Shown here: positions 1-55,842 of the stretch, piece after piece
How the letters are laid out: every line of letters begins with the position of its first letter
How positions within the stretch are numbered: the stretch's first letter is position 1
IMG/VR virus record: IMGVR_UViG_2923350032_000003
Reading direction: 5' to 3' (one strand)
DNA from: a virus
Lineage: Duplodnaviria > Heunggongvirae > Uroviricota > Caudoviricetes
DNA: 55,842 nt
Made by a program: the position numbers and the translations under genes
The notes under the pieces: model-generated
Told to the model about the DNA's origin: nothing
The model's input: the letters and a program-made list of their open reading frames with translations, nothing else
Database searches by the model: none

Positions 1-183
1 ATGAAATCAAAAGACACCCTAAAGTGGTTCCCTGCGCAGCTTCCTGAAGTAAGAATTATCCTAGGGGATGCTGTAGTGGAAGTAGCAAAACAGGGAAGAC
101 CTATCAATACCAGAACATTGCTTGATTACATTGAAGGAAACATAAAGAAAAAATCATGGCTGGATAACAAAGAATTATTATAA
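1..183 (+). CDS. ynaE: YnaE/YdfK-family small prophage protein, 60 aa as encoded; in-frame TAA followed by 17 more sense codons to a second stop at 232-234
   Basis: ORF starts at window position 1 (MKSKDTLKWFPAQ...); recalled similarity to Rac/Qin YnaE/YdfK; position next to pinR as in K-12 Rac. Confidence 0.5.
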   Translation: MKSKDTLKWFPAQLPEVRIILGDAVVEVAKQGRPINTRTLLDYIEGNIKKKSWLDNKELL

Positions 184-550
184 ACAGCGATATCAGTTCT
201 TAAAGACAACCAAAATTTAAATGGTAAAATGTAATATAATAAACTTACTTTTTTATCATTTTTCCACTTTAACAACATTTTGCTCCACTTTTCCACGACC
301 AAACAACTTGAAATCTGGTTAAAATAACACGCAACACTATTCTTCTTCCTTGAGTCCGCCCGGAACTCGAAAAACAAACCGAGTTAAAGCCATTTTTCAC
401 AAAATCGATTTTGGGTCTCACCAAAATTACGGGATTGCATACGCATTCGTTTATTTTCGAACGTGTACATACAAATATGCACAAAAATAATCATAATTAT
501 TTTCTGAGATGCATTATGATATGAACACCAATTTCGTATAGAGTCTCACT

Positions 551-1141
551 ATGTCTCAAATTTTTGCTTACTGTCGGATATCAACGCTGGATCAGACCAC
601 CGAAAATCAACGCCGGGAAATCGAAAGTGCAGGTTTTAAAATCAAACCTCAGCAAATAATCGAAGAACACATTAGTGGCTCAGCAGCAACCAGTGAGCGT
701 CCTGGTTTTAACCGGTTGCTTGCTCGCCTGAAATGTGGTGATCAATTGATTGTGACAAAACTGGATCGCCTTGGTTGTAATGCAATGGATATCAGGAAAA
801 CAGTGGAACAACTGACCGAAACAGGTATCAGAGTGCATTGCTTAGCATTGGGGGGCATTGACCTGACCAGTCCAACAGGAAAAATGATGATGCAAGTAAT
901 TTCAGCAGTCGCTGAATTTGAACGAGACCTTTTACTTGAACGCACTCATTCCGGGATAGTAAGAGCCCGCGGCGCAGGGAAACGTTTTGGTCGACCACCT
1001 GTGTTAAATGAAGAACAGAAACAGGTGGTATTCGAACGAATTAAGTCAGGTGTAAGTATAAGTGCCATTGCCCGGGAATTCAAAACCTCGCGGCAAACCA
1101 TTTTAAGAGCCAAAGCAAAACTTCAGACACCTGACATATAA
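551..1141 (+). CDS. pinR: Serine recombinase / DNA invertase (Pin family)
   Basis: 196 aa; N-terminal catalytic motif YCRISTLDQ with the nucleophile Ser, C-terminal HTH; adjacent to tail fiber genes. Confidence 0.8.
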
Positions 1142-1238
1142 AAAATAATCTCGGTGTGAGATGCTTTACGTCTTCCAAGCCCCCTTCCTTGCCGTAAATG
1201 GAAAGATACATCTAATTATAGAATTTATATGTTTTACC

Positions 1239-1814
1239 CTACGGCAGTGCTGGCCATTCAATATCCTGTGAAGTTGACGTATCAACACGGTTCAGCAATA
1301 CCCGATACTTTTTCCATGCTTCCAGCAACGAGATTTCTTCCTCCGTTGCAATTTCCAGATCTGCAGCATCCTGAAGCGGCGCAATATGCTCACTGGCTAC
1401 CTGCATCAGGTTGTTTTTTGTTTCTTCCGCCTCCCGGATCCGGAACAGTTTTTCTGCTTCCGTATCCTTCACCCAGGCTGTGCCGTTCCACTTCTGAAAC
1501 TCCCCTTCCGGCGATAACCAGGTAACATTTTCCGGTAACGGACCGAGTTCAGAAATAAATAACTCGTCCCCTGACGCTACGTCATAAACCGTTTTACCCC
1601 GATGGTCTTCAACGAGATGCCACGATGCCTCATCACTGTTGAAAACAGCCACAAAGCCAGCAGGAATATCTGGTGGTGCAATATCGGTACTGTTTGCTGG
1701 CAGACCTGTATGAGGCGGAATATATGCGTCACCTTCACCAATAAATTCATTAGTTCCGGCCAGCAGATTATAAATTTTTATGGTCCGTGGTTGTTCACTC
1801 ATTCTGAATGCCAT
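1239..1814 (-). CDS. tfaR: Tail fiber assembly protein
   Basis: 191 aa, [24 protein letters not shown]...; immediately downstream of the side tail fiber gene with abutting stop/start. Confidence 0.8.
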
Positions 1815-4800
1815 TATGCAAGCCTCACAATATAGTTAAATGCGATGTTTTTGACGGTGTTTTCCGCGTTACCAGCAGCGTTAACGGTGATGGTGTGTCC
1901 ATGTGAACCAATCGCAACGGAGTGCGTATGAGCACCAATACCGACAGTATGCGCGTGTGCACCTGCAGATGCTGCTGTGCCGGACAGTGAGTGGCTATGA
2001 TTACCATCTGTACTGGTATTAGCTAACCACCCCGTAGACATACCTACTGAGCCTTGTACACCCCAGGTATTTTGACCTGAGCTTGTATAACCATATTGAT
2101 AAGTATCTTTAAAAACACTGGGGTTAAATCGACGGCCATCTCTATGGCTGTGATTACCAGCTGCATTCGTGCTGCCACTTAAACTATGGGTATGCGCACC
2201 AGTGTTATTCGTGGATTTAGTGCCGTAATCAAACGACGATGTGGTTTTCGCCCCCAAATCCGTACTGGATGCGCTGGCGCTGTGGGTATGCGATTTAATG
2301 CCGTCCTGTTCCTGAGACAATACGGCCCGACCACTGGCAGGTTTGCCCTTAATCGTCCAGCCACGCATATCAGGGATCACGCCTGACGGATAAGCCGCTG
2401 CAAGTTTCGGGTATGCAGATTTGTCAAAAGCCTGCCCCTGCATCAGGGCATAACCAGACGGAACGGTATCTGATGGCCACGGGATTGGTGCGCCGACTGG
2501 GTAGCTTTCTGGTGGAAGATTTTTCGAGGTATAAACTTCTGCCCAGTCTTCCTCAAAACCATAGCCATCTCTTGAGGAACGGTAGAACAGACCTCCATTT
2601 CTGTAATGTGCCTTCATCTGCAAGGTCCGGCAACTTCCGACTCCGGTATAGAAGTTAACCAGAATATAGCTGTCGCCAGAGCGGGTGACATTGTAAGCGC
2701 CTGATTCGGCATTCCATGGAACGCCCCCATCCGCATCGGCATACGTATCCGTTGCTCTTCTGGCAAAAGCAGCAACATGCGCAGCGGTTAAAGTGATATC
2801 AGTAGAACCATCAAACGAAACACCAGATATTTTTATTGCTGTCTGAAGTTTCGTAGCTGTATCAGAATTTCCCTTAATCCCCTTAGGAGAATTAAGTGGT
2901 GTATTGATCGTCACTTCACCTGTTGCGTTATTTACTGCAAATGGTCGAAGACCGTTCCAGCCACCGTACTGGTCGCCTTTATCAGTCATGAGCAAGTAAG
3001 TATTTGCTCCATCATTTCGCCATATGACACCGTAATCACCTGCAATCATCCTTAACGCGTTCTGACTACGGACAATAACTTCATCATTAGCGTAAATCTT
3101 ATTCCCGCTAATGTCTGACTTACTCAAAACAGGATACGAACTATAAAATCCATTACCTTGTTTAAAATCTAAAATTAAATTTACCGCAACTGATTCAGAA
3201 TAAGGATCAGTTGCGCCAAATTTATAAGTCGTTTCAGCAACAATATAATCAGAAGCAGGTGCAGTAACGGAGAGACCTTCTTCTAAAAAGACCTCTACGG
3301 GAAATGCCCCACCTTCTATATAGAATACGCTGTCTACGGTATCGCCTTTATTACTCATCAGAATGGAATGAATAGCGCGTTCCGATGTTGAATAAGCCCA
3401 GAACATACCACAGGCATAGCTACCCCGGTCCGTCCAGCCGCCTGCGCAAACAAAACCATTAAACTCACAATTATTCATTCTGTGATTAGCTGAGCGACTT
3501 GGCGTTGAAATGACAACGCGGGATGCCCGATGGCTGTCATTCCTTTTTATCACTAACGGATAATATTTACCTTCCTGGACACCCGCCGGGGCATTTACCA
3601 CAACGTATCGCATCCCCTTTTTCTGATCCACTTCACCTTTGCTGTAAACATTAATGTTACTCAGGAAGCGGTCCTTGTCGGGAATATCAGCACCGTTCTG
3701 GTCTTTCTGCAGACGTTTCTCTGCATTGTCATAGGCTGCTTTTACTGCCTTTGGCGTTGCCGCCAGCGTTTCAGACGTGCTGTTGGTCGCACTGCTGAGC
3801 TGTACTACCCCCTTTTTCGTCGTGCTCGCATCCTCAAGCGCCACGGCGGATGCAATATCCTCTGCACGTTTTGCCGCTGTCTCAGCGCGCGTTGCTGCGG
3901 ATTCTGCCGTACTTTTGCTCTGTGCTGCCGCTGCCGCACTGCCAGCAGCCTCTGTCGCCTTCGTGGATGCTGTCGTGGCGCTGCCCTTCGCTGCGGATGC
4001 TTGTCTTGTCGCCTCATCTTTTGAAGCAGACGCCGATGATGCCGATGACGCCGCCGAACTGGCGGACGATGCGGCAGCCGTTTTTGAGGATTCTGCGCTG
4101 GTTTCCGACGCTTTCGCGTTCGTCTCGGATGTCTTCGCTGCGGAAGCAGACCTCGCTGCTGCACTGGCCTGTTCAGTGGCTTCGCCAGCCTTCGTTGTGG
4201 CTGTTGAAGCGGACGATGCGGCGCTTTCTGCCGATTTTCCGGCGGCGCTAGCACTGGCTGAGGCCTGCCCGGCACTTGTTGACGCGGCACTGGCAGATGA
4301 TGCAGCCGCTGTTTTTGAGCCTGCCGCAGCTGAGGCACTCTGTCCCGCTGCCGTTTCAGAAGACCTGGCGTTCGTCTCGGACGTTTTTGCCGCCTTCGCA
4401 GAATTTGCTGCCGCCGTTGCCGAGGAAGCGGCACTACTGGCGCTTGATGATGCGTTCGTTTCTGATGATTTCGCTGCCTCTTTTGAGGCCGCCGCATCCC
4501 GGGCTGAGGTGGCAGCTTCTGACGCCTTCGTGGTCGCGGCGGATGCAGAAGTGGCTGCAGATTTTTGTGACGCTGCCGCATTCGTTTCTGACGTTTTCGC
4601 GGCACTGGCACTGGTAGCTGCCGCGCTTTTTGAGGACTCTGCAGCAGCAGCACTTTTCGATGCTTCAGTGGCCTTTGTTGATGCCGTTCCTGCGCTGGAA
4701 GACGCTGACTGAGCCGACGAAGCGGCCTGTCCGGCTGACGTGCTGGCTGCGCGTGCTGAGCCTGCAGCATCAGTCGCATGGGTTGCCGCCTCACGGGCTG

Positions 4801-5215
4801 ATGTGCCGGCATCGCTGGCTGACTTCTTCGCGGCTGCCGTGTTCTGTGCCACCGCGGACGCGTTACGCGCCACCTCTTCCACCATCAGTTCAAAACGGCG
4901 CAGTGCCTCAGGACGGGCATCATCCTCCGTCATGGCACCGAGAAAATCATTCAGCGTACCGGGTCGGGAATCTTCATACACGGTGATGGTCCCGGCATGT
5001 GACGGCGGGAATCCCTCCACCAACAGAATAACGCTGTACTGCCCGTACTCAACGTCCATGCTGTAACGCCCGGCTTCATCCGGATTTTCTGAGGCCAGCG
5101 TGTTCACCACCACCGTGGTGCTGTTACGTTTTGCTTTCAGCTGGATTGTGCAGTTCTGTACCGGTTTACCTGCACCGTCTTTCAGTACACCTGAAATCTT
5201 TACTGCCATATTCAC
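1814..5215 (-). CDS. stfR: Side tail fiber protein (lambda Stf-like)
   Basis: 1133 aa; conserved Stf N-terminus, long Ala/Ser/Thr-rich repeat region, His-rich HxH C-terminal tip. Confidence 0.8.
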
Positions 5216-5273: not shown

Positions 5274-5873
5274 TCAGAATTTATAACCGACACCCACGAT
5301 GAAACCGTCAGTGCGCCAGTCACCACTGCCGGAGCCTTCATAAGCAATATCAATGGCCACCGATTCGGTCAGGTTAAACTGCACGCCAGCTCCCCACGCC
5401 AGAGACGTGTTGCTGTGGCGACCGTCATCACTTCCGGTCAGCACATCGTGCGTTTTCCCCTTGTTGTCAGTTACGCGGATATAATCCCCGGAGAAAGTCG
5501 ACACACGGCTGTAAGCCATACCCGCCATCGCATACGCGCTGAACCATTCATTCACGCGCACAGACGGCCCCGCCATCACGCTGAACCAGCGATTACGCAC
5601 GGAATCCTCATGCCAGCGGGTATCGCTGTAATGCGTTTTTTGCTCATCTTCAGCGTTGGCATAACTGAATGACGTAATCAGCCCCAGCGTGTCCGTAAAC
5701 TCATAACGGTATTTCACGTTAATCCCGTTCAGATTATCGCTGCCGGGAGCGTTCGTACGGGCATGAAGATACCCTGCGCTCAGTGTGGCCTGCTGCTCAG
5801 ACGCCCATGCAGGCGCACCGGATACGGCCAGACAGATGGCTGCGGACAAAATGGCTGCACAAACTTTACGCAT
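5274..5873 (-). CDS. lomR: Lom/Ail-family outer membrane beta-barrel protein
   Basis: 199 aa with signal peptide and C-terminal aromatic residue (ends GYKF); located between J and stf as in lambda. Confidence 0.8.
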   Translation of the reverse strand: MRKVCAAILSAAICLAVSGAPAWASEQQATLSAGYLHARTNAPGSDNLNGINVKYRYEFTDTLGLITSFSYANAEDEQKTHYSDTRWHEDSVRNRWFSVMAGPSVRVNEWFSAYAMAGMAYSRVSTFSGDYIRVTDNKGKTHDVLTGSDDGRHSNTSLAWGAGVQFNLTESVAIDIAYEGSGSGDWRTDGFIVGVGYKF

Positions 5874-5940: not shown

Positions 5941-8900
5941 TCAGCTGATACTGATGCCTGCGGTGGCTTTCTTCATCACCACAACCAGCAAATCGCTGAT
6001 ACTTGCTGTGGGATACCAGTCATTTACCAGCCATGCTGACACCGAAAACTCCAGCGTCATGTGGCCGTGACCAGCTGGCATATCAATAACACCACTGTAA
6101 ATCAGCGTATTATCCAGCGCGGTACGGTTATAAATTTCAGCACCATTTTTCTTCACTATCAGGCGGCATGAGGAGTAAATATCAGTATGCTCTCTCTCAT
6201 GTTTAGCACCGCTGAATGCCACCGCCGGAATAACAATCTGCCGGTCAAACGGCTGATCGTCATAAATCCTGACGGTAATGGTTCCTGATGGCCACCGCTC
6301 CGGTGCACGGGAGTCCCGCGGGAAAGCCTTACCCACTGTTTTGACAATATCGCCTTCAATCTGGTTGGCTGACAGTTTCCCTTTAATCTGACAGTTCTCA
6401 TTTATCGTAACGTTGTTGAGCGTCCCGGAGTTCGCATTCACACTGCCACTGATATCCGCATTTTTAGCGGTCAGCTTTCCGTCCGGTGTCAGGGAAAAGG
6501 CCGGAGGATTGCCGCCGCTGGTAATGGTGGGGGCCGTCAGGCGCTTCAGGAACACTTCATTCATGAATATCTGATCACCCTGACCAACAAACATCGGTTT
6601 TGTGTTGCCATTCGCAGGATTAATCATCGCAATCCTGTCTGCCGCCAGCAGCACCTGACTCTGCATTCCTGCTGGCGTATTCTCAATACCGGCACCGATA
6701 CCCGCAATATAAAGGCGTCCGTCCTTCATCTGTTGCAGCTTCACAGCCCACATGCTGTTCAGATTATTATTTGTATCAACCTGAACCTTCTGTATCTGCT
6801 GGATCGCTGCACTCTGGTCTTCCAGTTTCTTATTGACGGTCTGTGTGATTTCATTGCTGACATCCGTAATGGACGTCCTGATTTCAGCCAGGTCAGGCGC
6901 AAGCTGACCGTTATCAATCTGCGTCCACAGCTCCTGAGCCAGATGGGTTTTCCCTATCTCGCCTTTGAAAAAATCCAGATAGCCTGATGCATCATCACTC
7001 GGCTGACCGACAGCCTCCACGAATGCCGATTTGCCAACGGTGTTCACACTGCGAACGTAAAAATAATAATCATGGCCCGGTTTGATATTGATACTGGCGG
7101 CTATCCAGTACAGTGCCGTACCAAGATAACGCGCGCTGGTTTCAACCTGCCTGATATCCGCAATCCGTTTTTCCGAGAACCAGAACTCAAACTGTACCGT
7201 CGGGTCATAAACCGCAAGATGCGGCGTGGCGGTTATCTGAAAATAGCCCGGCGTCAGCTCAATCCGCGACGGCGCTGCCGGTGCGGCAATCCGGAACGAT
7301 ACCGACGCCGGATCGCCCTGCTGCCCCCACGCATTTACTGCCCGGACTGTCAGCCTGTAGTTCCCCAGAGCCAGTTGTGTGAAGCGGTAAGTGGTTTCCG
7401 TCGTCCGGGCCGTGCTGACCAGCCGCTCACGGCCGTCATCCGCTGCCACGGTCAGGCGAAGCAGGAAGCTCACGCCCTTCACCACCTTCGGCGTGTCCCA
7501 GCGGGCCAGCACCTGGTATTCCCCGCTGTCTGCGGTGACTTCTGCGGTCAGGTGCTGCACCGCTGGCGGCGTGACACCATTTACCGTGCCGCTCTGGTCG
7601 CCGTCAAAGTGCGCCCCGTTATCCACGATGGCCTCTTTTTCCGGTACATGCTGCACGGCGGTGATGGCATACGTGCCGTCGTCGTTCTCACGGATACTCA
7701 CGCAGCGGAACAGGCGCTGGCGCAGCGTCGGCAGCTTCAGCCCCCATACGCTGTATTCAGCAACGCCGTCAGGAACACGGCTCACTTTCACCTTCACGCC
7801 GTCGGTGACGGACTGAACCTCCACGCTGACCGGACTCCCCTGCCCGTCAACCAGGCTTATCAGCGTGGTGCCGGAAGATGGCAGCGTGATTTCACGGTCG
7901 AGCGTCAGCGTCCGGGTCTGGCTGTTTACCGCCAGCACGCGCCCGCCGGTGCGGATACCGGCATAGTCATCATCGCAGATTTCAATGACATCGCCCGGTA
8001 CATGGCGAAGCCCTTCGGCACCCACGCTGAAGTCCACGGTCTGCGTTTCCAGCAGTTCTGTTTTAATCAGCCACAGCCCGGCGCGGTGTGCCTGCCCCCG
8101 GCTGGTACAGCCAAAAGCATCCATCTTCGTGACGTTACGACCGTAACGGGCAATGGCCTGCGTGTCCTCCACAAGCTCTGTCGCCGTCTCCCAGCCGTTA
8201 TTCGGGTCAATCCAGTTCACCTCAACGGCATTATGGCGGTCCTTCAGGGCGCTGAAGCTGTAGCGGAACGGCGCACCATCATCCGGCATCACCACATTAC
8301 TGCGGTTATAGGTCCACACCTTATCCGACGGTCGGTCCTGCACGAACGTCAGCGTCTGCCCGTTCCATACCGGCATACAGCGCATCGCAGAGCAGAAATC
8401 ACTGAGCACATCCCACGCCTTGCGCTGTGTGGTCAGGTACGCATTACAGGTGATGCGCGGCTCCGTGCCGCCAAAACCGTCCGGCACCGACTGATCGCAA
8501 TGCTGGCCGATGACATACAGCGCCCATTTGTCCACATCCGCCGCACCAAGACGTTTCCCCATGCCGTAGCGCGGATGGGTCAGCATATCCCACAGACACC
8601 AGGCCATGTTGTTGCTGTATGCTGGCTTAAACGTTCCGTCCCAGATACCGCTGTATTGCCGCGTCTGCGGGTTATAGTTCGACGGCACCTGCAGAATGCG
8701 CCCGCGCAGATGATAATTACGGCTCACCTGCTGGCTGCCGAACTGCTCCGAATCCACCTGCACGCCGACCAGTGCCGTGTTCGGGTAGCACTGTTTCACA
8801 TCGATGATTTCGGTGTATGACGACCAGAGCGTTTTGTTCTGCAGCTGGTCTGTGGTGCTGTCCGGCGTCATTCTGCGCATCCGGATATTAAACGGGCGCG

Positions 8901-9420: not shown

Positions 9421-9480
9421 TCATCACGCTCCATAAACGACAAAACCGCCCGCAGGCGGTTTCACATAAAATGTTTTGCA

Positions 9481-24703: not shown

Positions 24704-24705
24704 AA

Positions 24706-42938: not shown

Positions 42939-42986
42939 ATTGCAGCCGGGATAAATAAATGCCGCCTCTGTGGCGGCATGTTGCTG

Positions 42987-45747: not shown

Positions 45748-45787
45748 AAGCCCTCCTGAAAATTACCTCATGACCAGAAATTAACAC

Positions 45788-46864: not shown

Positions 46865-46929
46865 CTCTTTTGATACCGAATCTTTTTACTCACAAATTGC
46901 CGGAAGTGATCCGGTATGAATATTGCGAG

Positions 46930-47620: not shown

Positions 47621-47650
47621 AGCTACTCCTTAGTAAACACAGCAAAGAAA

Positions 47651-47724
47651 ACCCATAGGTAAACAAAAGTCAATACCCACAGGTTGTTTACCTTGCAGTA
47701 ATCGCATCTATTATTTACCTATGG
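47651..47724. promoter_or_regulatory. Operator-like repeats (oR side) between the cro-like gene and racR
   Basis: acccataggtaaac, tacccacaggttgtttacc and tttacctatgg; the last overlaps the racR start codon. Confidence 0.45.
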
Positions 47725-48140
47725 ACAAATATGAATTTAGACGACAGCAACTCATCAAAATTCGTGATGAGAAATGCGATGGTAAAGCGGTTAACGTGGC
47801 CAGAAAGATCGGGCGCGAGCCTTCTTATGTATCAAGAATGTTGTACCCAGAGGGGAAAAAGGGAAAAAAACGGATCGCTGATGATATGGTGGAGATTATC
47901 GAAGAGTCCTTTGGGTTACCCCGGGGATGGATGGATGGTATCGTTTCATCATCAACGAACACAGCCTCCAGTTATGAAACAAGGGTTCTAACGCCACGAC
48001 AACGTATTTTTTTAGATCTCTTAGACGAACTGCCAGAAAGTGAAGCGGATAACTTATTAAAAACTCTTGAAGAGAAAAAACAGTATTACAATATGATCTA
48101 CGAAGAAATCCGTAAAAAGAAAGCACAAAACGCATCATAG
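47721..48140 (+). CDS. racR: Prophage repressor (RacR-like, HTH)
   Basis: 139 aa with HTH (KAVNVARKIGREPSYVSRML); divergent from the cro-like gene and flanked by operator repeats. Confidence 0.5.
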   Translation: MDKYEFRRQQLIKIRDEKCDGKAVNVARKIGREPSYVSRMLYPEGKKGKKRIADDMVEIIEESFGLPRGWMDGIVSSSTNTASSYETRVLTPRQRIFLDLLDELPESEADNLLKTLEEKKQYYNMIYEEIRKKKAQNAS

Positions 48141-48181
48141 CTCACCAAACAACTAGTCACCAGTTAAGACACCGCAAAAAG

Positions 48182-48220
48182 TTACCCATGGGTATTTACT
48201 TTTTAAATACCTATGGGTAT
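48182..48220. promoter_or_regulatory. Operator-like palindromes (oL side) downstream of racR, upstream of ydaG
   Basis: ttacccatgggtattt and aaatacctatgggtat; same TACC-ATGGGTA core as the oR-side repeats. Confidence 0.45.
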
Positions 48221-48394
48221 CCTTCTTTTCATACCAACCCACCCCGCCCCACAGAATGCAGGGCAATACTTCGAGTTACCAGGCAGTGGTCAGGGGTTAA
48301 GTAGCCAGCCCGAGGCGTAAGAACATGACGGCGGGATTCAAATTTTGCAGTGCAGCAGTTAGTTCCGCCACCCGGCGTTAAGGGGAGAGATAAG

Positions 48395-48529
48395 ATGGTG
48401 CATTACGAAGTAGTTCAGTATTTGATGGATTGTTGCGGTATCACTTACAACCAGGCTGTGCAGGCTTTACGCAGCAACGACTGGGATCTCTGGCAGGCAG
48501 AAGTCGCTATACGTAGCAACAAGATGTGA
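48395..48529 (+). CDS. ydaG: YdaG (44 aa)
   Basis: Hand-translated MVHYEVVQYLMDCCGITYNQAVQALRSNDWDLWQAEVAIRSNKM; below ORF-track cutoff. Confidence 0.65.
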   Translation: MVHYEVVQYLMDCCGITYNQAVQALRSNDWDLWQAEVAIRSNKM

Positions 48530-48539
48530 GATTCGCAAA

Positions 48540-48695
48540 ATGCAAAAAATCGACCTCGGCAACAACGAATCCCTGGTGTGCGGCGTGTTCCCCAACCAGG
48601 ATGGAACGTTCACTGCCATGACGTATACCAAAAGCAAAACATTTAAAACCGAAACTGGTGCGCGCCGATGGTTGGAGAAGCACACAGTAAGCTAA
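48540..48695 (+). CDS. ydaF: YdaF (51 aa)
   Basis: Hand-translated MQKIDLGNNESLVCGVFPNQDGTFTAMTYTKSKTFKTETGARRWLEKHTVS; below ORF-track cutoff. Confidence 0.65.
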   Translation: MQKIDLGNNESLVCGVFPNQDGTFTAMTYTKSKTFKTETGARRWLEKHTVS

Positions 48696-49180
48696 CGATT
48701 AAAACGTCTACTCCTGCTGTTCCAGAATAACTTCATAAAATGGGAGTATTTTTCGGTGACGAGATAATAAGAACAGTTTGCGCTATCACTCTGATGTTGA
48801 ATGATGCCCTTCCGTTCTAATTTTTTCATAACCGGGTTACGGCAAGGAGAAGTGATAATAAGATTTCCTGTTTTAAGGAAATCTTTAAATACAGCGATTT
48901 CTTTCTCAGATAAACGAAGCAATACTCGTTGCTCTGGTAGTAATGAATAATGCTTTTGAATATGTGCTCGCAATCTTGAGAAGGAAATGGCGACCACGAA
49001 AGAAAAGGCAAAAACGATAATCTGAAAGAGCCAAGGTATTTCAGTATAAGCATTGAATGCGACAGTAAACTCTTTCGGTATCAGCCAGAGAGTGAGACCA
49101 AAAATGATAATCGTATACATAAGTCTTTCGAGTGGCTCGTTAGCAAAAAGTTTCAACAATGGAGTAAATACATCCAACAT
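48692..49180 (-). CDS. sieB: Superinfection exclusion protein B
   Basis: 162 aa from MLDVFTPLLKLFANE...; two TM helices. Confidence 0.8.
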   Translation of the reverse strand: MLDVFTPLLKLFANEPLERLMYTIIIFGLTLWLIPKEFTVAFNAYTEIPWLFQIIVFAFSFVVAISFSRLRAHIQKHYSLLPEQRVLLRLSEKEIAVFKDFLKTGNLIITSPCRNPVMKKLERKGIIQHQSDSANCSYYLVTEKYSHFMKLFWNSRSRRFNR

Positions 49181-49621
49181 ATCAATAACTCTCAACTGTA
49201 AGGGTATTGAAATGTTAACACAAGCTCTCGCTGTAGGGGTATAGCCGAGACCACCGAAGCCCGGAGGTGGTGAAATAAAACCGGGCACAACACGAAGGCG
49301 CATTTCCGATATCCATAAAGAGTCGGTCTTGTCTGTTAAATTTAAATGGTGGGAGTGCGCCTCCGGTTGTAAATAACGACATTGCTGTGTGTAGTCCTGG
49401 CGGCATCAGTTTTTTTCTTGAAGTTCGGCTGATGTCCGCCCTTTTTAAAGTGAATTTTGTGATGCGGTGAATGCGGCTAAGCGCACGTGGCACAGTTAAA
49501 AGTCATGTCAGTCCTTATTGGTTTGGGTGGGAAAGCCGACTGTAATTGTTAACTGGTTGCAGTCACCTGGAGGCACCAGACACCGCATCAACAAAGTTCA
49601 TTTGTAAAAATGGAGATAATT

Positions 49622-49843
49622 ATGATTGCACATCACTTCGGAACTGATGAAATACCACGTCAGTGTGTGACTCCTGGCGATTATGTTCTTCATGAAGGCC
49701 GGACATATATTGCCTCGGCAAACAATATTAAAAAGCGAAAACTATATATTCGTAACCTGACCACAAAAACATTCATTACTGACCGCATGATTAAAGTCTT
49801 CCTCGGTCGTGATGGTTTACCTGTAAAGGCGGAGTCATGGTGA
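49622..49843 (+). CDS. kilR: Killing protein KilR (FtsZ inhibitor)
   Basis: 73 aa from [14 protein letters not shown]... Confidence 0.8.
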
Positions 49844-50013
49844 TGACTAAGAAAATAAAATGTGCTTACCACCTTTGCAAAAAAGACGTTGAAGAAAGCA
49901 AAGCTATTGAAAGAATGCTTCACTTCATGCACGGGATTTTATCAAAAGACGAACCGAGAAAATATTGCAGTGAAGCTTGTGCCGAAAAAGACCAGATGGC
50001 ACATGAACTTTAA
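49843..50013 (+). CDS. ydaE: YdaE (56 aa, Cys-rich)
   Basis: Hand-translated [56 protein letters not shown]; start overlaps kilR stop. Confidence 0.7.
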   Translation: MTKKIKCAYHLCKKDVEESKAIERMLHFMHGILSKDEPRKYCSEACAEKDQMAHEL

Positions 50014-50087
50014 TTAATTGACTATTCGAAACTGAATTTATGCCAGAAATGGCAGGTATTCGCTCAACCTTAATTAAGGAGAAAAAC

Positions 50088-50363
50088 ATGATTACCAATT
50101 ATGAAGCCACTGTTGTAACTACCGATGACATTGTTCACGAGGTGAATCTGGAAGGAAAGCGCATTGGCTACGTAATTAAAACAGAAAATAAAGAAACCCC
50201 ATTCACTGTGGTTGATATCGATGGTCCATCAGGCAACGTAAAAACACTTGATGAAGGTGTCAAAAAAATGTGCCTGGTGCATATCGGAAAGAATCTGCCC
50301 GCAGAAAAAAAAGCCGAATTTCTGGCAACTCTAATTGCAATGAAATTAAAAGGTGAAATCTGA
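50088..50363 (+). CDS. racC: RacC
   Basis: 91 aa from MITNYEATVVTTDD...; AAGGAG ribosome binding site. Confidence 0.75.
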   Translation: MITNYEATVVTTDDIVHEVNLEGKRIGYVIKTENKETPFTVVDIDGPSGNVKTLDEGVKKMCLVHIGKNLPAEKKAEFLATLIAMKLKGEI

Positions 50364-50464
50364 AAGAAATAGCCTGCGTATGGCGCAGGCTATGAACAGT
50401 GTGTATCCGGCAAGATCATTCACTGAACAAAACGAATTTTAATCTGAGTTGAGGTTAAAAAACA

Positions 50465-53056
50465 ATGAGCACAAAACCACTCTTCCTGTTACGGAAAGCG
50501 AAAAAATCATCCGGTGAACCTGACGTCGTCCTGTGGGCAAGCAACGATTTTGAATCGACCTGTGCCACTCTGGACTACCTGATCGTTAAGTCAGGTAAAA
50601 AACTGAGCAGCTATTTTAAAGCTGTTGCCACGAATTTTCCTGTCGTTAATGACCTGCCCGCTGAAGGTGAGATCGATTTTACCTGGAGTGAACGCTATCA
50701 ACTCAGCAAAGACTCCATGACATGGGAACTAAAACCGGGAGCAGCACCAGACAACGCTCACTATCAAGGCAATACCAACGTCAACGGCGAAGACATGACT
50801 GAGATTGAGGAGAATATGCTACTCCCAATTTCTGGCCAGGAACTGCCCATTCGTTGGCTTGCTCAACACGGCAGCGAAAAACCGGTAACGCACGTTTCAC
50901 GCGACGGACTCCAGGCATTACACATTGCTCGGGCTGAAGAACTACCGGCTGTTACTGCCCTGGCTGTTTCCCACAAAACCAGCCTGCTCGACCCGCTGGA
51001 AATTCGCGAACTCCACAAACTGGTTCGTGACACTGACAAAGTTTTCCCTAATCCTGGTAATTCAAACCTGGGACTGATAACTGCTTTTTTCGAAGCATAC
51101 CTGAACGCTGACTACACCGATCGAGGACTGCTGACAAAAGAGTGGATGAAGGGTAATCGTGTTTCACACATCACTCGCACGGCTTCCGGTGCTAATGCTG
51201 GCGGCGGAAACCTCACCGATCGCGGCGAAGGTTTCGTACACGATCTGACGTCACTGGCGCGCGACGTAGCCACTGGCGTACTGGCCCGTTCAATGGATCT
51301 GGACATCTATAACCTTCATCCGGCACACGCTAAACGCATTGAGGAAATTATCGCTGAAAATAAACCGCCCTTTTCTGTTTTCCGCGACAAATTCATCACC
51401 ATGCCTGGCGGGCTGGATTATTCCCGCGCCATCGTGGTTGCGTCCGTAAAAGAAGCACCAATTGGGATCGAGGTCATCCCCGCGCACGTCACTGAATATC
51501 TGAACAAAGTACTGACTGAAACCGATCATGCCAACCCTGATCCGGAAATCGTGGATATTGCCTGCGGTCGCTCCTCTGCCCCGATGCCGCAGCGAGTAAC
51601 AGAAGAAGGAAAACAGGATGATGAAGAAAAACCGCAACCATCTGGAACAACGGCAGTTGAACAGGGAGAGGCTGAAACAATGGAACCGGACGCAACTGAA
51701 CATCATCAGGACACGCAGCCGCTGGATGCTCAGTCACAGGTAAATTCTGTTGATGCGAAATATCAGGAACTGCGGGCAGAACTCCATGAAGCCCGGAAAA
51801 ACATTCCATCAAAAAATCCTGTCGATGACGATAAATTGCTTGCTGCATCACGTGGTGAATTTGTTGACGGAATTAGCGATCCGAAATGGGTAAAGGGGAT
51901 CCAGACTCGCGATTGTGTGTACCAGAACCAGCCAGAAACGGAAAAAACCAGCCCAGATATGAATCAACCTGAGCCAGTAGTGCAACAGGAACCGGAAATA
52001 GCCTGCAATGCCTGCGGCCAGACTGGCGGGGATAACTGCCCTGACTGTGGTGCGGTGATGGGCGACGCAACATACCAGGAAACATTCGCTGAAGAGAGTC
52101 AGGTTGAAGCTAAGGAAAATGATCCGGAGGAAATGGAAGGCGCTGAACATCCGCACAATGAGAATGCTGGCAGCGATCCGCATCGCGATTGCAGTGATGA
52201 AACTGGCGAAGTCGCAGATCCCGTAATCGTAGAAGACATAGAGCCAGGTATTTATTACGGAATTTCGAATGAGAATTACCACGCGGGTCCCGGTATCAGT
52301 AAGTCTCAGCTCGATGACATTGCTGATACTCCGGCACTATATTTGTGGCGTAAAAATGCCCCCGTGGACACCACAAAGACAAAAACGCTCGATTTAGGAA
52401 CTGCTTTCCACTGCCGGGTACTTGAACCGGAAGAATTCAGTAACCGCTTTATCGTAGCACCTGAATTTAACCGCCGTACAAACGCCGGAAAAGAAGAAGA
52501 GAAAGCGTTTCTGATGGAATGCGCAAGCACAGGAAAAACGGTTATCACTGCGGAAGAAGGCCGGAAAATTGAACTCATGTATCAAAGCGTTATGGCTTTG
52601 CCGCTGGGGCAATGGCTTGTTGAAAGCGCCGGACACGCTGAATCATCAATTTACTGGGAAGATCCTGAAACAGGAATTTTGTGTCGGTGCCGTCCGGACA
52701 AAATTATCCCTGAATTTCACTGGATCATGGACGTGAAAACTACGGCGGATATTCAACGATTCAAAACCGCTTATTACGACTACCGCTATCACGTTCAGGA
52801 TGCATTCTACAGTGACGGTTATGAAGCACAGTTTGGAGTGCAGCCAACTTTCGTTTTTCTGGTTGCCAGCACAACTATTGAATGCGGACGTTATCCGGTT
52901 GAAATTTTCATGATGGGCGAAGAAGCAAAACTGGCAGGTCAACAGGAATATCACCGCAATCTGCGAACCCTGTCTGACTGCCTGAATACCGATGAATGGC
53001 CAGCTATTAAGACATTATCACTGCCCCGCTGGGCTAAGGAATATGCAAATGACTAA
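50465..53056 (+). CDS. recE: Exodeoxyribonuclease VIII (RecE)
   Basis: 863 aa; Rac recE-like throughout, including C-terminal nuclease domain. Confidence 0.9.
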
Positions 53057-53858
53057 GCAACCACCAATCGCAAAAGCCGATCTGCAAAAAACTCAGGGAA
53101 ACCGTGCACCAGCAGCAGTTAAAAATAGCGACGTGATTAGTTTTATTAACCAGCCATCAATGAAAGAGCAACTGGCAGCAGCTCTTCCACGCCATATGAC
53201 GGCTGAACGTATGATCCGTATCGCCACCACAGAAATTCGTAAAGTTCCGGCGTTAGGAAACTGTGACACTATGAGTTTTGTCAGTGCGATCGTACAGTGT
53301 TCACAGCTCGGACTTGAGCCAGGTAGCGCCCTCGGTCATGCATATTTACTGCCTTTTGGTAATAAAAACGAAAAGAGCGGTAAAAAGAACGTTCAGCTAA
53401 TCATTGGCTATCGCGGCATGATTGATCTGGCTCGCCGTTCTGGTCAAATCGCCAGCCTGTCAGCCCGTGTTGTCCGTGAAGGTGACGAGTTTAGCTTCGA
53501 ATTTGGCCTTGATGAAAAGTTAATACACCGCCCGGGAGAAAACGAAGATGCCCCGGTTACCCACGTCTATGCTGTCGCAAGACTGAAAGACGGAGGTACT
53601 CAGTTTGAAGTTATGACGCGCAAACAGATTGAGCTGGTGCGCAGCCTGAGTAAAGCTGGTAATAACGGGCCGTGGGTAACTCACTGGGAAGAAATGGCAA
53701 AGAAAACGGCTATTCGTCGCCTGTTCAAATATCTGCCCGTATCAATTGAGATCCAGCGTGCAGTATCAATGGATGAAAAGGAACCACTGACAATCGATCC
53801 TGCAGATTCCTCTGTATTAACCGGGGAATACAGTGTAATCGATAATTCAGAGGAATAA
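53049..53858 (+). CDS. recT: Recombinase RecT (single-strand annealing protein)
   Basis: 269 aa from [13 protein letters not shown]...; start overlaps recE end. Confidence 0.9.
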
Positions 53859-53914
53859 TTCAGCCTGGCGGTGTAATGCACCGCCAACTTGAAATATTTT
53901 TTATGAGAAAAATT

Positions 53915-54109
53915 ATGAGATATGACAATGTTAAACCATGTCCATTTTGTGGTTGTCCATCAGTAACGGTGAAAGCCATTTCAGGATATTACCGAGCGAA
54001 GTGTAACGGATGCGAATCCCGAACCGGTTATGGTGGAAGTGAAAAAGAAGCACTCGAAAGATGGAATAAACGAACCACTGGAAATAATAATGGAGGTGTT
54101 CATGTATAA
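53915..54109 (+). CDS. ralR: Restriction alleviation protein Lar/RalR
   Basis: 64 aa from MRYDNVKPCPFCGCPSV...; Cys4 zinc-ribbon-like. Confidence 0.8.
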   Translation: MRYDNVKPCPFCGCPSVTVKAISGYYRAKCNGCESRTGYGGSEKEALERWNKRTTGNNNGGVHV

Positions 54110-54311
54110 AATTACCGCCACTATTGAAAAGGAAGGTGGCACTCCTACTAACTGGACAAGATATTCAAAATCTAAACTAACGAAATCAGAATGCGAAAAA
54201 ATGCTCTCAGGTAAAAAAGAAGCAGGCGTTTCCAGAGAGCAGAAAGTAAAACTGATAAATTTTAATTGCGAGAAACTTCAGTCCTCGAGAATTGCATTGT
54301 ATTCAAATTAA
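54102..54311 (+). CDS. ydaC: YdaC
   Basis: 69 aa from MYKITATIEKEGG... Confidence 0.7.
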   Translation: MYKITATIEKEGGTPTNWTRYSKSKLTKSECEKMLSGKKEAGVSREQKVKLINFNCEKLQSSRIALYSN

Positions 54312-54389
54312 AACTTCATAGCTGATTATTAATAATCAACATCGGGCGTCAATTTCAGTCTAACATTGGCGCCTGCCAGAGGTGATGCG

Positions 54390-54605
54390 ATGGCACAAGT
54401 AATCTTTAATGAAGAGTGGATGGTTGAATACGGCCTGATGCTTCGCACTGGTCTGGGGGCCAGACAAATTGAAGCATACCGCCAGAACTGTTGGGTGGAG
54501 GGCTTCCACTTCAAACGAGTATCTCCTTTAGGTAAGCCAGACAGCAAACGAGGGATTATCTGGTACAACTATCCAAAGATAAATCAGTTTATCAAAGACT
54601 CATGA
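54390..54605 (+). CDS. xisR: Excisionase-like protein XisR (YdaQ)
   Basis: 71 aa from [15 protein letters not shown]...; immediately upstream of integrase. Confidence 0.7.
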
Positions 54606-54606
54606 T

Positions 54607-55842
54607 ATGTCTAAATTACCAACAGGTGTCGAGATTAGAGGTAGATACATTCGCATCTGGTTCATGTTTCGAGGAAAACGATGTCGGGAAACATTAAAAG
54701 GCTGGGAGATTACAAACAGTAATATTAAAAAGGCCGGAAATTTAAGATCGCTGATAGTTCATGAAATAAACTCCGGTGAATTTGAGTATTTAAGACGTTT
54801 TCCCCAGTCCAGCACTGGGGCAAAAATGGTGACAACGAGAGTCATAAAAACGTTCGGAGAGCTTTGTGATATCTGGACAAAAATTAAAGAGACAGAGTTA
54901 ACAACAAACACAATGAAGAAAACGAAATCACAATTAAAAACACTCAGAATAATAATTTGTGAAAGTACCCCGATATCACATATTCGTTATAGCGATATCT
55001 TAAACTACCGGAATGAACTGCTGCATGGAGAAACTCTTTACCTGGATAATCCAAGATCCAACAAAAAAGGAAGAACCGTGCGCACAGTTGATAACTATAT
55101 CGCCCTGCTCTGTTCGCTGTTGCGTTTTGCGTATCAGTCGGGATTTATATCAACTAAACCATTTGAAGGAGTAAAAAAATTACAGCGAAACAGAATAAAG
55201 CCTGATCCGTTATCTAAAACAGAATTCAATGCATTAATGGAAAGTGAAAAAGGACAGAGCCAGAACTTGTGGAAATTTGCCGTTTACTCAGGACTTCGTC
55301 ACGGGGAACTGGCAGCTCTGGCGTGGGAGGATGTGGATCTCGAAAAGGGAATAGTGAATGTCAGAAGAAACCTGACGATACTTGATATGTTCGGTCCCCC
55401 AAAAACAAATGCCGGGATCCGAACAGTAACACTACTGCAGCCTGCTCTTGAAGCACTGAAGGAGCAATACAAACTGACCGGGCATCATCGCAAAAGCGAA
55501 ATCACCTTTTATCATCGGGAGTACGGCAGAACCGAAAAGCAAAAACTGCATTTTGTTTTCATGCCCAGGGTGTGTAACGGAAAACAAAAACCTTATTACT
55601 CGGTAAGCAGTTTGGGGGCAAGGTGGAATGCAGCAGTAAAACGTGCTGGTATTCGCCGCCGTAATCCGTACCATACGCGGCATACTTTTGCCTGCTGGCT
55701 GTTGACGGCAGGAGCGAACCCGGCATTTATAGCCAGCCAAATGGGGCATGAAACTGCGCAGATGGTGTATGAAATTTACGGTATGTGGATTGATGACATG
55801 AACGACGAACAGATAGCCATGTTGAATGCGCGGTTATCGTAG
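54607..55842 (+). CDS. intR: Tyrosine integrase IntR
   Basis: 411 aa; C-terminal catalytic region with R...HTRHT...Y motifs; ends at the window edge. Confidence 0.9.
   Translation: MSKLPTGVEIRGRYIRIWFMFRGKRCRETLKGWEITNSNIKKAGNLRSLIVHEINSGEFEYLRRFPQSSTGAKMVTTRVIKTFGELCDIWTKIKETELTTNTMKKTKSQLKTLRIIICESTPISHIRYSDILNYRNELLHGETLYLDNPRSNKKGRTVRTVDNYIALLCSLLRFAYQSGFISTKPFEGVKKLQRNRIKPDPLSKTEFNALMESEKGQSQNLWKFAVYSGLRHGELAALAWEDVDLEKGIVNVRRNLTILDMFGPPKTNAGIRTVTLLQPALEALKEQYKLTGHHRKSEITFYHREYGRTEKQKLHFVFMPRVCNGKQKPYYSVSSLGARWNAAVKRAGIRRRNPYHTRHTFACWLLTAGANPAFIASQMGHETAQMVYEIYGMWIDDMNDEQIAMLNARLS

What the first reader, a model, noticed from the sequence alone, without database searches (positions are those of the whole stretch)
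1..55842. Rac-type prophage carrying the full late region missing from the K-12 remnant
The early genes match my recollection of K-12 Rac gene for gene (intR through sieB). Unlike K-12, this copy keeps Q, a complete lysis cassette, packaging, head and tail genes, an intact lom and J, and extra cargo. Only the major tail gene (IS629) and the ParB-like gene (IS911-like) are visibly inactivated.
Basis: partly seen in the sequence, partly recalled or inferred. Interest (0 to 1): 0.4.

Follow-up and report, generated by a model that had tools for sequence, protein, structure and literature searches.

The report
Near-complete Rac prophage, grounded by IS629
The window is a nearly full-length version of the well-known E. 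coli Rac prophage at its usual chromosomal site, disabled by two insertion sequences; hundreds of sequenced E. coli genomes carry the same prophage, so it is ordinary.

Summary

- **Identity:** The window is one collinear Rac-type lambdoid prophage. It runs from the ynaE start codon to the intR stop codon.
- **Site:** Identical copies in complete genomes sit between ynaM/uspF and ttcA. They are bounded by the same 26-bp att repeat as K-12 Rac.
- **Match to K-12:** Every K-12 Rac block recurs here in the same order and orientation. intR to ydaG is 99.7% identical, and the scattered K-12 late remnants are 87–99.9% identical.
- **How K-12 differs:** K-12 has three internal deletions, an IS5 in lom, and a different immunity/replication module.
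- **Intact genes:** All 55 CDSs annotated as intact in the reference strain CDF6 and compared here have full-length ORFs; 52 are identical to the RefSeq proteins and 3 carry one missense change.
- **Disrupted genes:** IS629 (16422–17731) splits the tail-tube gene. An IS3-family element (28509–29766) splits the ParB-like gene; it is ISEc31-like, not really IS911. Removing each in silico restores the ORF.
- **Minor correction:** ynaE carries a premature stop.
- **Cargo:** trkG, two TolA-like morons, DUF1971, and two transporter/regulator cassettes of different origin.
- **Known already:** Full-length Rac-like prophages are published (Sp10, CP-933R). This late region occurs in about 390 of 5426 complete E. 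coli genomes.

Interest is low.

The parts
1..183 (+). ynaE-like gene, truncated to 60 aa (77 aa in K-12) by a stop at codon 61
551..1141 (+). pinR, serine recombinase (196 aa, 99.5% to K-12 PinR). No flanking inverted repeats, so no invertible segment was detected.
1239..5215 (-). tfaR (1239-1814) and an intact side tail fibre gene stf (1814-5215, 1133 aa, 83.7% aa to K-12 StfR)
5274..5873 (-). Intact lom (Ail/Lom family, 199 aa). K-12 lomR is truncated and split by IS5.
5941..11811 (-). Tail tip genes: J (5941-9420, 1159 aa), I (9481-10128), K (10026-10769), L (10775-11473), M (11473-11811). All absent from K-12.
11804..15037 (-). Tape measure protein, 1077 aa. K-12 ynaA is its first 312 codons fused to lom sequence.
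15203..15972 (-). Tail assembly chaperone G (the longest ORF spans 15511-15972; CDF6 annotates 15511-15870). The T extension (15203-15436) is in the -1 frame. The slippery heptamer A_AAA_AAG lies just before the G stop. K-12 ydaY is the C-terminal 116 aa of G.
16021..18296 (-). Tail tube (major tail) gene, split after about codon 188 by IS629. Removing the IS and one target-duplication copy in silico gives a 320-aa protein identical to WP_000094292.1.
16422..17731 (+). IS629, 1310 bp, with target duplication AAC at 16419-16421 and 17732-17734. orfA is 108 aa and orfB 295 aa. The ALIL frameshift pseudoknot lies at 16757-16873. This insertion site was not found in any of 5426 complete E. coli genomes.
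18323..20051 (-). Tail terminator-like gene (18323-18715) and four small head-tail connector or completion genes
20094..24703 (-). Head genes: capsid of the P22-coat family (20094-21233, 379 aa; 75% aa to phage HK639), DUF6651 scaffold-like gene (21332-22096), MuF-like minor head gene (22201-23313), DUF4055 portal (23297-24703)
24706..27295 (-). Packaging genes: TerL (24706-26007, Terminase_6N/6C), TerS (25988-27082), and a small ORF (27086-27295)
27273..28205 (-). TAGT-family (TET-associated glycosyltransferase-like, 'GREB1-related') gene, 310 aa, intact
28198..30253 (-). ParB_N-domain gene, split by an IS3-family element. Removing the IS in silico restores a 264-aa ORF about 98% identical to the intact 263-aa copy in ON470595. 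K-12 ynaK is its first 86 codons.
28509..29766 (-). IS3-family insertion sequence, 1258 bp, target duplication TAC, inverted-repeat ends TGTAGTGG. It is about 92-93% identical to ISEc31-family copies and is neither IS3 nor IS911. It contains the Rfam isrC match at 29576-29698. The same insertion is present in strains CDF6, EC_J_9 and fEC.1.
30391..31848 (-). trkG potassium transporter cargo gene (485 aa, 99.4% to K-12 TrkG)
31986..33159 (-). Lysis cassette: Rz (31986-32450), embedded Rz1 (32045-32230), endolysin R (32447-32944), holin S (32944-33159). K-12 keeps only the Rz 3' part and Rz1.
33411..35059 (-). Region downstream of Q: two TolA C-terminal-domain morons (33411-33785; 33957-34385), the STnc100 sRNA match (34496-34682), and a promoter-like site followed by a terminator-like hairpin (35059-34983) that could be PR'/tR'. 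About 99% identical to phage mEp460 across query positions corresponding to w32943-34576.
35430..36858 (-). Q antiterminator (35430-35972, DUF1133 / Phage_antitermQ, phrog_753), DUF1364 HNH-like gene (35969-36259), DUF1367 NinB-like gene (36259-36858)
37672..38010 (+). DUF1971 cargo gene. Another strain has hokD at this position.
38621..41518 (+). Cargo cassette A: MFS transporter (38734-39933), ChaC-like gamma-glutamylcyclotransferase (39945-40637), LysR regulator (40634-41515). 84-87% nt identity to chromosomal loci of Enterobacter sp. and Pantoea rwandensis.
41564..45093 (-). Cargo cassette B: DUF2254 membrane protein (41646-42923) and BCCT transporter (42987-44984). About 94% nt identity to an accessory chromosomal locus of E. 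coli ST131-type and B strains.
45325..48224 (.). Immunity/replication module, not the K-12 allele: DUF977 Ren-like gene (45325-45747, -), replication initiator / DnaD-like loader (45788-46858, -), YdaT-family CII-like gene (46930-47355, -), YdaS-family Cro-like gene (47339-47620, -), 139-aa repressor (47721-48140, +). Operator-like repeats lie at 47627-47720 and palindromes at 48178-48224.
48230..55842 (.). Early-left region, 99.7% identical to K-12 Rac: ydaG, ydaF, sieB(-), kilR, ydaE, racC, recE (50465-53056), recT, ralR, RalA sRNA (54108-54286, -), rcbA, xisR, intR (54607-55842)

Best explanation
**What it is.** The window is a single, nearly full-length Rac-type lambdoid prophage at the canonical ttcA attachment site. 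It is about 56.7 kb from att to att, or about 54.1 kb without the two insertion sequences. It shows what K-12 Rac looked like before decay.

**How K-12 differs.**
- Three internal deletions: ydaW to Rz, ParB-like gene to chaperone G, and tape measure to lom.
- An IS5 inserted in lom.
- A different immunity/replication cassette.

**Gene order.** It is the standard lambdoid order: int-xis, recET-kil-sieB, repressor / cro-like / cII-like, replication, a cargo hotspot, nin-like genes, Q, lysis, trkG, ParB-like/TAGT-like pair, terminase, head, tail, J-lom-stf-tfa, pin.

**Shown.** All of these genes are intact ORFs except two.
- IS629 splits the tail-tube gene. This insertion is private to this strain, so it is probably recent.
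- An ISEc31-like IS3-family element splits the ParB-like gene. This insertion is shared with several strains, so it is probably older.

**Inferred.**
- The element can probably still excise, because Int and Xis match the excision-proficient K-12 proteins (Xis identical, Int 99.8%).
- It can probably replicate, lyse the cell and fill heads.
- It cannot build tails, so it is a 'grounded' prophage.
- It persists as a carrier of recET, ralR/RalA, kilR, sieB, trkG and a 6.5-kb transporter/regulator cargo.
For: - **Collinear with K-12.** Six blocks match K-12 Rac in the same order and orientation, and the early proteins are 99.5-100% identical.
- **Same site and att.** Identical copies lie between ynaM/uspF and ttcA. 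A 26-bp exact att repeat sits 760 bp left and 75 bp right of the window ends, and the same 26-mer is at both ends of K-12 Rac.
- **Simple deletion junctions.** The ydaW|Rz and ynaK|ydaY junctions are simple joins with 2 bp of overlap; the ynaA|lomR junction could not be resolved to the base because K-12 lom differs there.
- **Intact genes.** 52 of 55 compared CDSs are identical to RefSeq proteins and 3 carry a single missense change. The G/GT slippery site is preserved.
- **Family assignments.** Q, replication, repressor, terminase, portal and capsid are all assigned to their families.
- **Insertion sequences.** IS629 identity and target duplication are shown. In-silico excision restores both ORFs exactly. 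The IS629 junction is absent from 5426 complete genomes.
- **Cargo is internal.** The same cargo sits inside Rac at ttcA in another strain.
- **Widespread.** At least 80% of w17735-37000 is present in 388 genomes, of w1-19000 in 223, and of w37000-55842 in 248.
[quoted passage not shown] Sp10 keeps all morphogenetic genes and is transferable to K-12 (PMC2669165).
Against: - The att sites and flanking genes lie outside the window. They were read only in 99.97-100% identical copies from other strains.
- No experimental evidence exists for this element. The closest 'phage' records (vB_EcoS-...) are computationally predicted prophages, not isolates.
- The immunity/replication module and stf differ from K-12, so 'Rac' here means a mosaic family, not one lineage.
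- The role of the ParB-like gene is unknown, so the effect of its loss cannot be judged.
- At about 54 kb without the IS elements, the genome is about 9% longer than the nearest isolated phage with this head type (HK639, 49.6 kb).
Confidence: 0.87

Rival explanations
1. **Chimera.** The early half (intR to the DUF977 gene) and the late half (DUF1367 gene to ynaE) are remnants of two different prophages. They would have been joined by rearrangement, with chromosomal genes (MFS to BCCT) trapped between them.
For: - The 8-kb stretch between the two halves carries non-phage transport and regulator genes. These are related to chromosomal loci of Enterobacter/Pantoea and of E. coli.
- The immunity/replication module is not the K-12 one.
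Against: - K-12 Rac, which has no such cargo, carries pieces of both halves in the same order and orientation, at 99-99.9% identity, between the same att repeats.
- ON470595 has the K-12-type racR-ydaSTUVW module joined to the same Q, lysis, head and tail region, with different cargo at the same position.
- There is only one integrase and one att pair.
- Other Rac variants carry other inserts at this spot, so it behaves as a variable hotspot (H82, H84, H85).
Confidence: 0.03
2. **Still mobile.** Despite the IS629 insertion the element would still spread as a phage. This could happen through tail proteins supplied by another lambdoid prophage in the cell, or after precise loss of IS629.
For: - All other morphogenetic, lysis, packaging, replication and excision genes are intact.
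- In O157 Sakai, prophages with defects are packaged and transferred through prophage-prophage complementation. Rac-like Sp10 reaches K-12 this way (PMC2669165).
- E. coli genomes usually hold several lambdoid prophages with similar tail genes: the matches have a median of 6 places per genome.
Against: - The tail-tube gene is split at about codon 188 of 320, and the window holds no second copy.
- Precise excision of IS3-family elements is rare (established knowledge).
- Whether a compatible helper is present in this strain is unknown.
- The oversize genome and the loss of the ParB-like gene may add further blocks.
Confidence: 0.08
3. **More defective than it looks.** Besides the two IS hits, the element could not have made viable phage even before IS629 arrived. 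Possible reasons:
- The cargo makes the genome too long for its head.
- The ParB-like/TAGT-like pair next to terS is needed for packaging or DNA modification.
- The repressor cannot be inactivated.
For: - The IS-free length of about 54.1 kb compares with 49.6 kb for HK639 and 47.0 kb for Klebsiella phage 5 LV-2017, the nearest isolated phages with this capsid.
- The ParB-like/TAGT-like pair is conserved next to terminase genes in very distant phages. It is repeatedly damaged in Rac copies: by deletion in K-12, by truncation in S6aCHROMc, and by an IS here.
- The 139-aa repressor has no peptidase domain. The same is true of non-SOS-inducible Sp10.
Against: - Head capacity cannot be read from sequence.
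- Rac-SA53 is recorded as a 52.3-kb phage.
- All ORFs are intact and identical across many strains, which argues against long neutral decay.
- The function of the ParB-like pair is untested.
Confidence: 0.3

Closest known systems
Cryptic prophage Rac of E. coli K-12 MG1655 (NC_000913.3, 1411899-1434958)
   Same: - Same integration site and the same 26-bp att repeat.
- intR to ydaG 99.7% identical at the nucleotide level.
- trkG, the ynaK part, ydaY, ynaA, tfaR, pinR and ynaE are 98.7-99.9% identical.
- Same order and orientation throughout.
   Different: - K-12 lacks w5632-14102, w15863-29999 and the Q/nin/holin/endolysin region.
- K-12 has IS5 in lom.
- K-12 carries racR-ydaS-ydaT-ydaU-ydaV-ydaW where the window has a different repressor/cro/cII/replication set (YdaT only 33% aa).
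- stf is only 87% identical at the nucleotide level.
- K-12 lacks the MFS-to-BCCT cargo.
Rac-like prophages Sp10 (O157:H7 Sakai) and CP-933R (EDL933)
   Same: - Full-length lambdoid prophages integrated in ttcA.
- They share the int-proximal ~8 kb with K-12 Rac.
- Sp10 keeps all morphogenetic genes, has intact ExoVIII-type recombination, has a repressor without a peptidase domain, and is transferable (PMC4632033, PMC2669165).
   Different: - Not compared at sequence level here.
- According to the literature only the leftmost ~8 kb is close to K-12 Rac. In the window the late remnants also match K-12 at 99%, so the window is the closer model of the K-12 ancestor.
Predicted prophage record ON470595 (vB_EcoS-683R6) and its relatives
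   Same: - The Q, lysis, trkG, ParB-like, TAGT-like, terminase, head and tail-tube regions are 98-99% identical.
- The ParB-like and tail-tube genes are intact there.
   Different: - It carries the K-12-type racR-ydaSTUVW module.
- The hotspot holds different cargo (LygF, kinase, FtsH-like, S8 peptidase).
- It has tRNA genes downstream of Q.
- It is a computational prophage prediction that includes host flanks, not an isolated phage.
Lambdoid phage HK639 (head module) and phage mEp460 (region downstream of Q and the holin)
   Same: - The capsid is 75% aa identical to HK639.
- The TolA-like moron and holin region is 99% nt identical to mEp460 (H43).
   Different: These are module-level relatives only. 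The rest of each genome is unrelated at the nucleotide level.

Membership tests
Rac prophage family (E. coli, ttcA-integrated lambdoid) | Integration at the 5' end of ttcA with duplicated att core | tested here: met
   The att sites lie just outside the window. In strain CDF6 (99.97-100% identical) the 26-bp repeat AAGAAAGAACAATACAACCTGAACAA flanks the element, and one copy lies inside ttcA. The same 26-mer is at both ends of K-12 Rac. The flanks of the window's own strain could not be read.
Rac prophage family (E. coli, ttcA-integrated lambdoid) | IntR/XisR and the early-left genes recE, recT, ralR/RalA, kilR, sieB | tested here: met
   These proteins are 99.5-100% aa identical to K-12. RalA scores 225 bits in Rfam.
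Rac prophage family (E. coli, ttcA-integrated lambdoid) | RacR-YdaS-YdaT immunity module and YdaU/YdaV replication genes | tested here: not met
   racR, ydaS, ydaU and ydaV have no match, and YdaT is only 33% aa identical. A functionally equivalent but different module is present. This is mosaic substitution, as is usual in lambdoid phages.
Rac prophage family (E. coli, ttcA-integrated lambdoid) | Late-region remnants (trkG, ynaK, ydaY, ynaA, lomR, stfR, tfaR, pinR) collinear with K-12 | tested here: met
   Five blocks at 86.8-99.9% identity, in the same order and strand.
IS629 (IS3 family) | About 1310 bp, terminal inverted repeats, 3-bp target duplication, orfA/orfB with a -1 frameshift, high identity to a reference copy | tested here: met
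   The element is 1310 bp with ends TGAACCGCCCCGG and target duplication AAC. It is 99.2% identical to the annotated IS629 in BP-4795. The ALIL pseudoknot is present.
IS911 | High nucleotide identity to IS911 | tested here: not met
   Only 41 nt (88%) and 80 nt (80%) align to the 764 bp of IS911 held in K-12. There is no match to IS3. The closest named family is ISEc31, at 92-93%. It is an IS3-family member only.
Functional (plaque-forming) temperate phage | Complete set of intact essential genes, including the tail tube | tested here: not met
   The tail-tube gene is split by IS629.
Functional (plaque-forming) temperate phage | Induction, particle production, infectivity | not testable with these tools
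   Needs wet-lab induction and plaque or transduction assays.

The most novel reading that the evidence does not exclude
**Resurrecting Rac.** The IS-free form of this element would be the living ancestor form of K-12 Rac. Repairing the tail-tube gene, and possibly the ParB-like gene, would then give a plaque-forming 'Rac phage'.

**A possible new module.** The ParB_N-domain and TAGT-like (GREB1-related) gene pair just upstream of terS also recurs side by side in phages of Lactobacillus and Haloarcula, and the TAGT-like gene alone also matches phages of Nocardia and Vibrio. The pair would be an uncharacterised, widely conserved DNA-modification or packaging-accessory module. K-12 ynaK would be its remnant.
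Probability: 0.25. Interest if true: 0.45.

Novelty: already known. Interest (0 to 1): 0.15.

Why it matters
- **Explains odd K-12 genes.** It maps orphan K-12 Rac genes to their origins:
  - ynaK is the 5' end of a ParB-like gene.
  - ydaY is the 3' part of tail chaperone G.
  - ynaA is the first 312 codons of the tape measure, fused to lom sequence.
  - The last 37 codons of ydaW are read from the Rz region.
- **Fresh grounding.** It is a clean example of a prophage immobilised very recently by a single IS629 hit.
- **No new biology.** Full-length Rac-like prophages are published, and this exact late region is annotated in hundreds of RefSeq genomes.

Tried and rejected
- **Invertible tail-fibre segment next to pinR:** the inverted-repeat search of w1-6000 found nothing convincing.
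- **Second IS as IS3 or IS911:** no match to IS3 and only short, weak matches to IS911.
- **tRNA genes as cargo or att markers:** none found.
- **Cargo as an anti-phage defence system:** no PADLOC hits for the cargo proteins, the TolA-like morons, the TAGT-like protein or the DUF977 protein.
- **Source strain or shared IS629 insertion:** no complete genome has the junction.
- **vB_EcoS-... records as evidence of viable phage:** rejected, because they are in-silico prophage predictions from clinical isolates.
- **Phage Rac-SA53 as a relative of the late region:** only 11% coverage at 85% identity.
- **Mobile-element ends flanking the cargo:** only a short hairpin-like repeat of about 24 nt at three cassette borders. 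No IS ends or long repeats.


Full report
**1. What is in the window**

The window holds about 60 genes in the standard lambdoid order, read right to left (RefSeq annotation of near-identical copies):
- intR-xisR, then rcbA-ralR-recT-recE-racC-ydaE-kilR, then sieB-ydaF-ydaG
- a repressor facing a cro-like / cII-like / replication / Ren-like operon
- about 8 kb of non-phage cargo
- DUF1367, DUF1364 and Q
- two TolA-like morons, then S-R-Rz/Rz1
- trkG, then a ParB-like gene and a TAGT-like gene
- terS-terL-portal-MuF-scaffold-capsid and the head-tail connectors
- tail tube, G/GT, tape measure, M-L-K-I-J
- lom-stf-tfa, then pinR and ynaE

There are no tRNA genes.

**2. Comparison with K-12 Rac**

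BLASTN against MG1655 Rac (locus L003, annotated) gives six collinear, same-orientation blocks.

| Window | K-12 content | Identity |
|---|---|---|
| 48230-55842 | intR to ydaG | 99.7% |
| 30000-32430 | ynaK, trkG, rzoR/rzpR | 99.3% |
| 14103-15862 | ydaY, ynaA | 99.9% |
| 5458-5631 | lomR fragment | 97.7% |
| 2174-5463 | stfR | 86.8% |
| 1-1999 | tfaR, pinR, ynaE | 98.7% |

- Twelve early proteins (IntR to YdaG) are 99.5-100% identical.
- racR, ydaS, ydaU and ydaV have no counterpart, and YdaT is 33% identical.
- In their place the window has a 139-aa repressor (phrog_5736), a YdaS-family Cro-like protein, a YdaT-family CII-like protein, a 358-aa replication initiator / DnaD-like loader (phrog_3729) and a DUF977 Ren-like protein.
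- Operator-like repeats lie in the divergent promoter region. Two palindromes lie just before the point where K-12 identity resumes at 48230.

K-12 therefore differs by three deletions, an IS5 in lom, and a module swap.
- The ydaW|Rz and ynaK|ydaY junctions are simple joins with about 2 bp of overlap. At the ynaA|lomR junction the window match ends cleanly in the tape measure, but K-12 lom sequence is diverged on the other side, so that join was not resolved to the base.
- This explains several odd K-12 genes:
  - ynaK is the first 86 codons of a 264-aa ParB-like gene.
  - ydaY is the last 116 aa of tail chaperone G.
  - ynaA is the first 312 aa of the 1077-aa tape measure, fused to lom sequence.
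  - The last 37 codons of ydaW are read from the Rz region, out of the Rz frame.

**3. One prophage or two?**

- Copies 99.97-100% identical to the window are found in complete genomes.
- In strain CDF6 the element lies between ynaM/uspF/ompN and ttcA.
- A 26-bp exact direct repeat sits 760 bp left of the window start and 75 bp right of the window end, inside ttcA.
- The same 26-mer is at both annotated ends of K-12 Rac.
- There is one integrase and one att pair.
- The cargo lies inside the same element at ttcA in strain S6aCHROMc.
- A related copy (ON470595) joins the K-12-type immunity module to the same late region, with different cargo at the same spot.

The att-to-att length is about 56.7 kb, or about 54.1 kb without the two IS elements.

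**4. Integrity of the genes**

- I mapped the 57 CDSs that RefSeq annotates as intact in CDF6 (stf is IS-split there and was checked separately).
- Of the 55 that are not IS-split in the window, 52 are identical, stop codon included.
- J, the ChaC-like gene and the replication gene each differ by one missense change.
- stf is intact here (1133 aa). In CDF6 it is split by a second copy of the IS3-family element.
- The -1 frameshift heptamer A_AAA_AAG lies immediately before the chaperone G stop, and the T part is open in the -1 frame.
- Rz1 is present inside Rz.
- Q matches DUF1133, Phage_antitermQ and phrog_753.

**5. The two insertion sequences**

*IS629*
- Position 16422-17731, 1310 bp, target duplication AAC.
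- 99.2% identical to the IS629 annotated in phage BP-4795. The ALIL frameshift pseudoknot is present.
- It splits the tail-tube gene. Removing it with one duplication copy gives a 320-aa protein identical to WP_000094292.1.
- No complete E. coli genome among 5426 has this junction, so the insertion is private and probably recent.

*IS3-family element*
- Position 28509-29766, 1258 bp, target duplication TAC.
- It splits the ParB-like gene. Removing it restores a 264-aa ORF about 98% identical to the intact copy in ON470595.
- It is not IS3 and aligns to IS911 over only 121 nt. ISEc31-family copies are 92-93% identical.
- This insertion is shared with CDF6, EC_J_9 and fEC.1.

*Other small defects*
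- ynaE stops at codon 61 of 77.
- PGAP flags one TolA-like moron as partial, although a 142-aa ORF with a full TolA C-terminal domain is present.

**6. Cargo**

- trkG is in the same place as in K-12.
- Two TolA C-terminal-domain morons lie downstream of Q. This stretch is 99% identical to phage mEp460.
- DUF1971 is replaced by hokD in another strain.
- Cassette A (MFS, ChaC-like, LysR; w38621-41518) is 84-87% identical at the nucleotide level to chromosomal loci of Enterobacter sp. and Pantoea rwandensis.
- Cassette B (DUF2254, BCCT; w41564-45093) is about 94% identical to an accessory chromosomal locus of E. coli.
- None of these proteins matches a known defence family.
- Other Rac variants carry defence-like genes at the same spot, so this is a variable cargo hotspot. 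Examples are SIR2 with adenosine deaminase, an FRG-domain protein, and an S8 peptidase with an FtsH-like protein and a kinase.

**7. How it most likely works**

*Shown*
- A complete lambdoid gene set, apart from a split tail-tube gene and a split ParB-like gene.

*Inferred*
- Excision should work. Int and Xis match those of K-12 Rac (Xis identical, Int 99.8%), which excises (PMC4632033).
- Replication, Q-dependent late transcription, lysis and head filling are plausible.
- Tail assembly is blocked, so the prophage is grounded.
- Mobilisation with the help of another lambdoid prophage is conceivable, as shown for defective O157 prophages, including Rac-like Sp10 (PMC2669165).
- Two caveats apply: the genome is about 9% longer than the nearest isolated phage with this capsid type (HK639, 49.6 kb), and the role of the ParB-like/TAGT-like pair is unknown.

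**8. Comparison with what is known, and novelty**

- Full-length Rac-like prophages at ttcA (Sp10, CP-933R) and the incompleteness of K-12 Rac are established in the literature (PMC4632033, PMC6379469, PMC2669165).
- At least 80% of the window's middle late region is present in 388 of 5426 complete E. coli genomes.
- The 'phage' records closest to it are in-silico prophage predictions.
- The finding is correct but already known, and interest is low.
- The only strain-specific feature is the IS629 hit in the tail-tube gene.

Noticed in passing
window 27273-30253 (- strand): A TAGT-family (TET-associated glycosyltransferase-like, 'GREB1-related') gene directly follows the ParB_N-domain gene, overlapping it by 8 bp, just upstream of terS. 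The same two genes lie side by side in Lactobacillus phage phi jlb1 and Haloarcula hispanica tailed virus 2. The TAGT-like gene alone also matches L. delbrueckii phages (near their left genome end), Nocardia phage NTR1 and ~190-kb Vibrio phages at 39-47% aa. The window has no TET/JBP or hydroxymethylase gene. The function of the pair is unknown. The ParB-like gene is damaged in different ways in K-12 (deletion), S6aCHROMc (truncation) and here (IS).
   Followed up: partly
window 36858-45325; L004 25439-29457; one search hits H82, H84, H85: The interval between the Ren-like DUF977 gene and the nin-like/Q genes is a variable cargo hotspot in Rac-type prophages. Here it holds transporter/regulator cassettes. 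Other strains hold SIR2 with adenosine deaminase and an NTP pyrophosphatase, an FRG-domain protein, or LygF with a kinase, an FtsH-like protein and an S8 peptidase.
   Followed up: partly
window 38481-38517, 41560-41592, 45233-45265: A hairpin-forming repeat of about 24 nt (GTCYGCT..GCACAAAGCRGAC) sits at the three borders of the two cargo cassettes, and one copy is inverted. It could be shared terminators or a small repeat element that helped assemble the cassettes.
   Followed up: partly
window 1-234: ynaE has a premature stop at codon 61 (77 aa in K-12). The same allele is annotated as a 60-aa hypothetical protein in CDF6.
   Followed up: yes
window 15511-15530 (- strand): The classic -1 slippery heptamer A_AAA_AAG lies two codons before the stop of tail chaperone G, and the T extension (15203-15436) is open in the -1 frame. 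K-12 'ydaY' is therefore a remnant of a G/GT chaperone gene.
   Followed up: yes
window 47627-47720 and 48178-48224: Operator-like repeats (AGGTAAACAA / TTGTTTACCT, 3-4 copies) lie between the repressor and the cro-like gene. Two palindromes (TACCCATGGGTAT) lie just downstream of the repressor. The mosaic boundary with K-12 sequence (48230) falls immediately after these palindromes.
   Followed up: partly
window 29576-29698, 1273-1471, 34496-34682: Three Rfam matches above the gathering score: isrC lies inside the IS3-family element, IS009 lies inside tfaR on the coding strand, and STnc100 lies downstream of Q. A promoter-like site followed by a terminator-like hairpin at 35059-34983 (- strand) could be PR'/tR'.
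   Followed up: no
L001 9565-10823 (strain CDF6) versus window 28509-29766: CDF6 carries a second, 100% identical copy of the IS3-family element inside stf of the same prophage, and it has no IS629. Closely related strains therefore carry different IS hits in this one prophage.
   Followed up: partly
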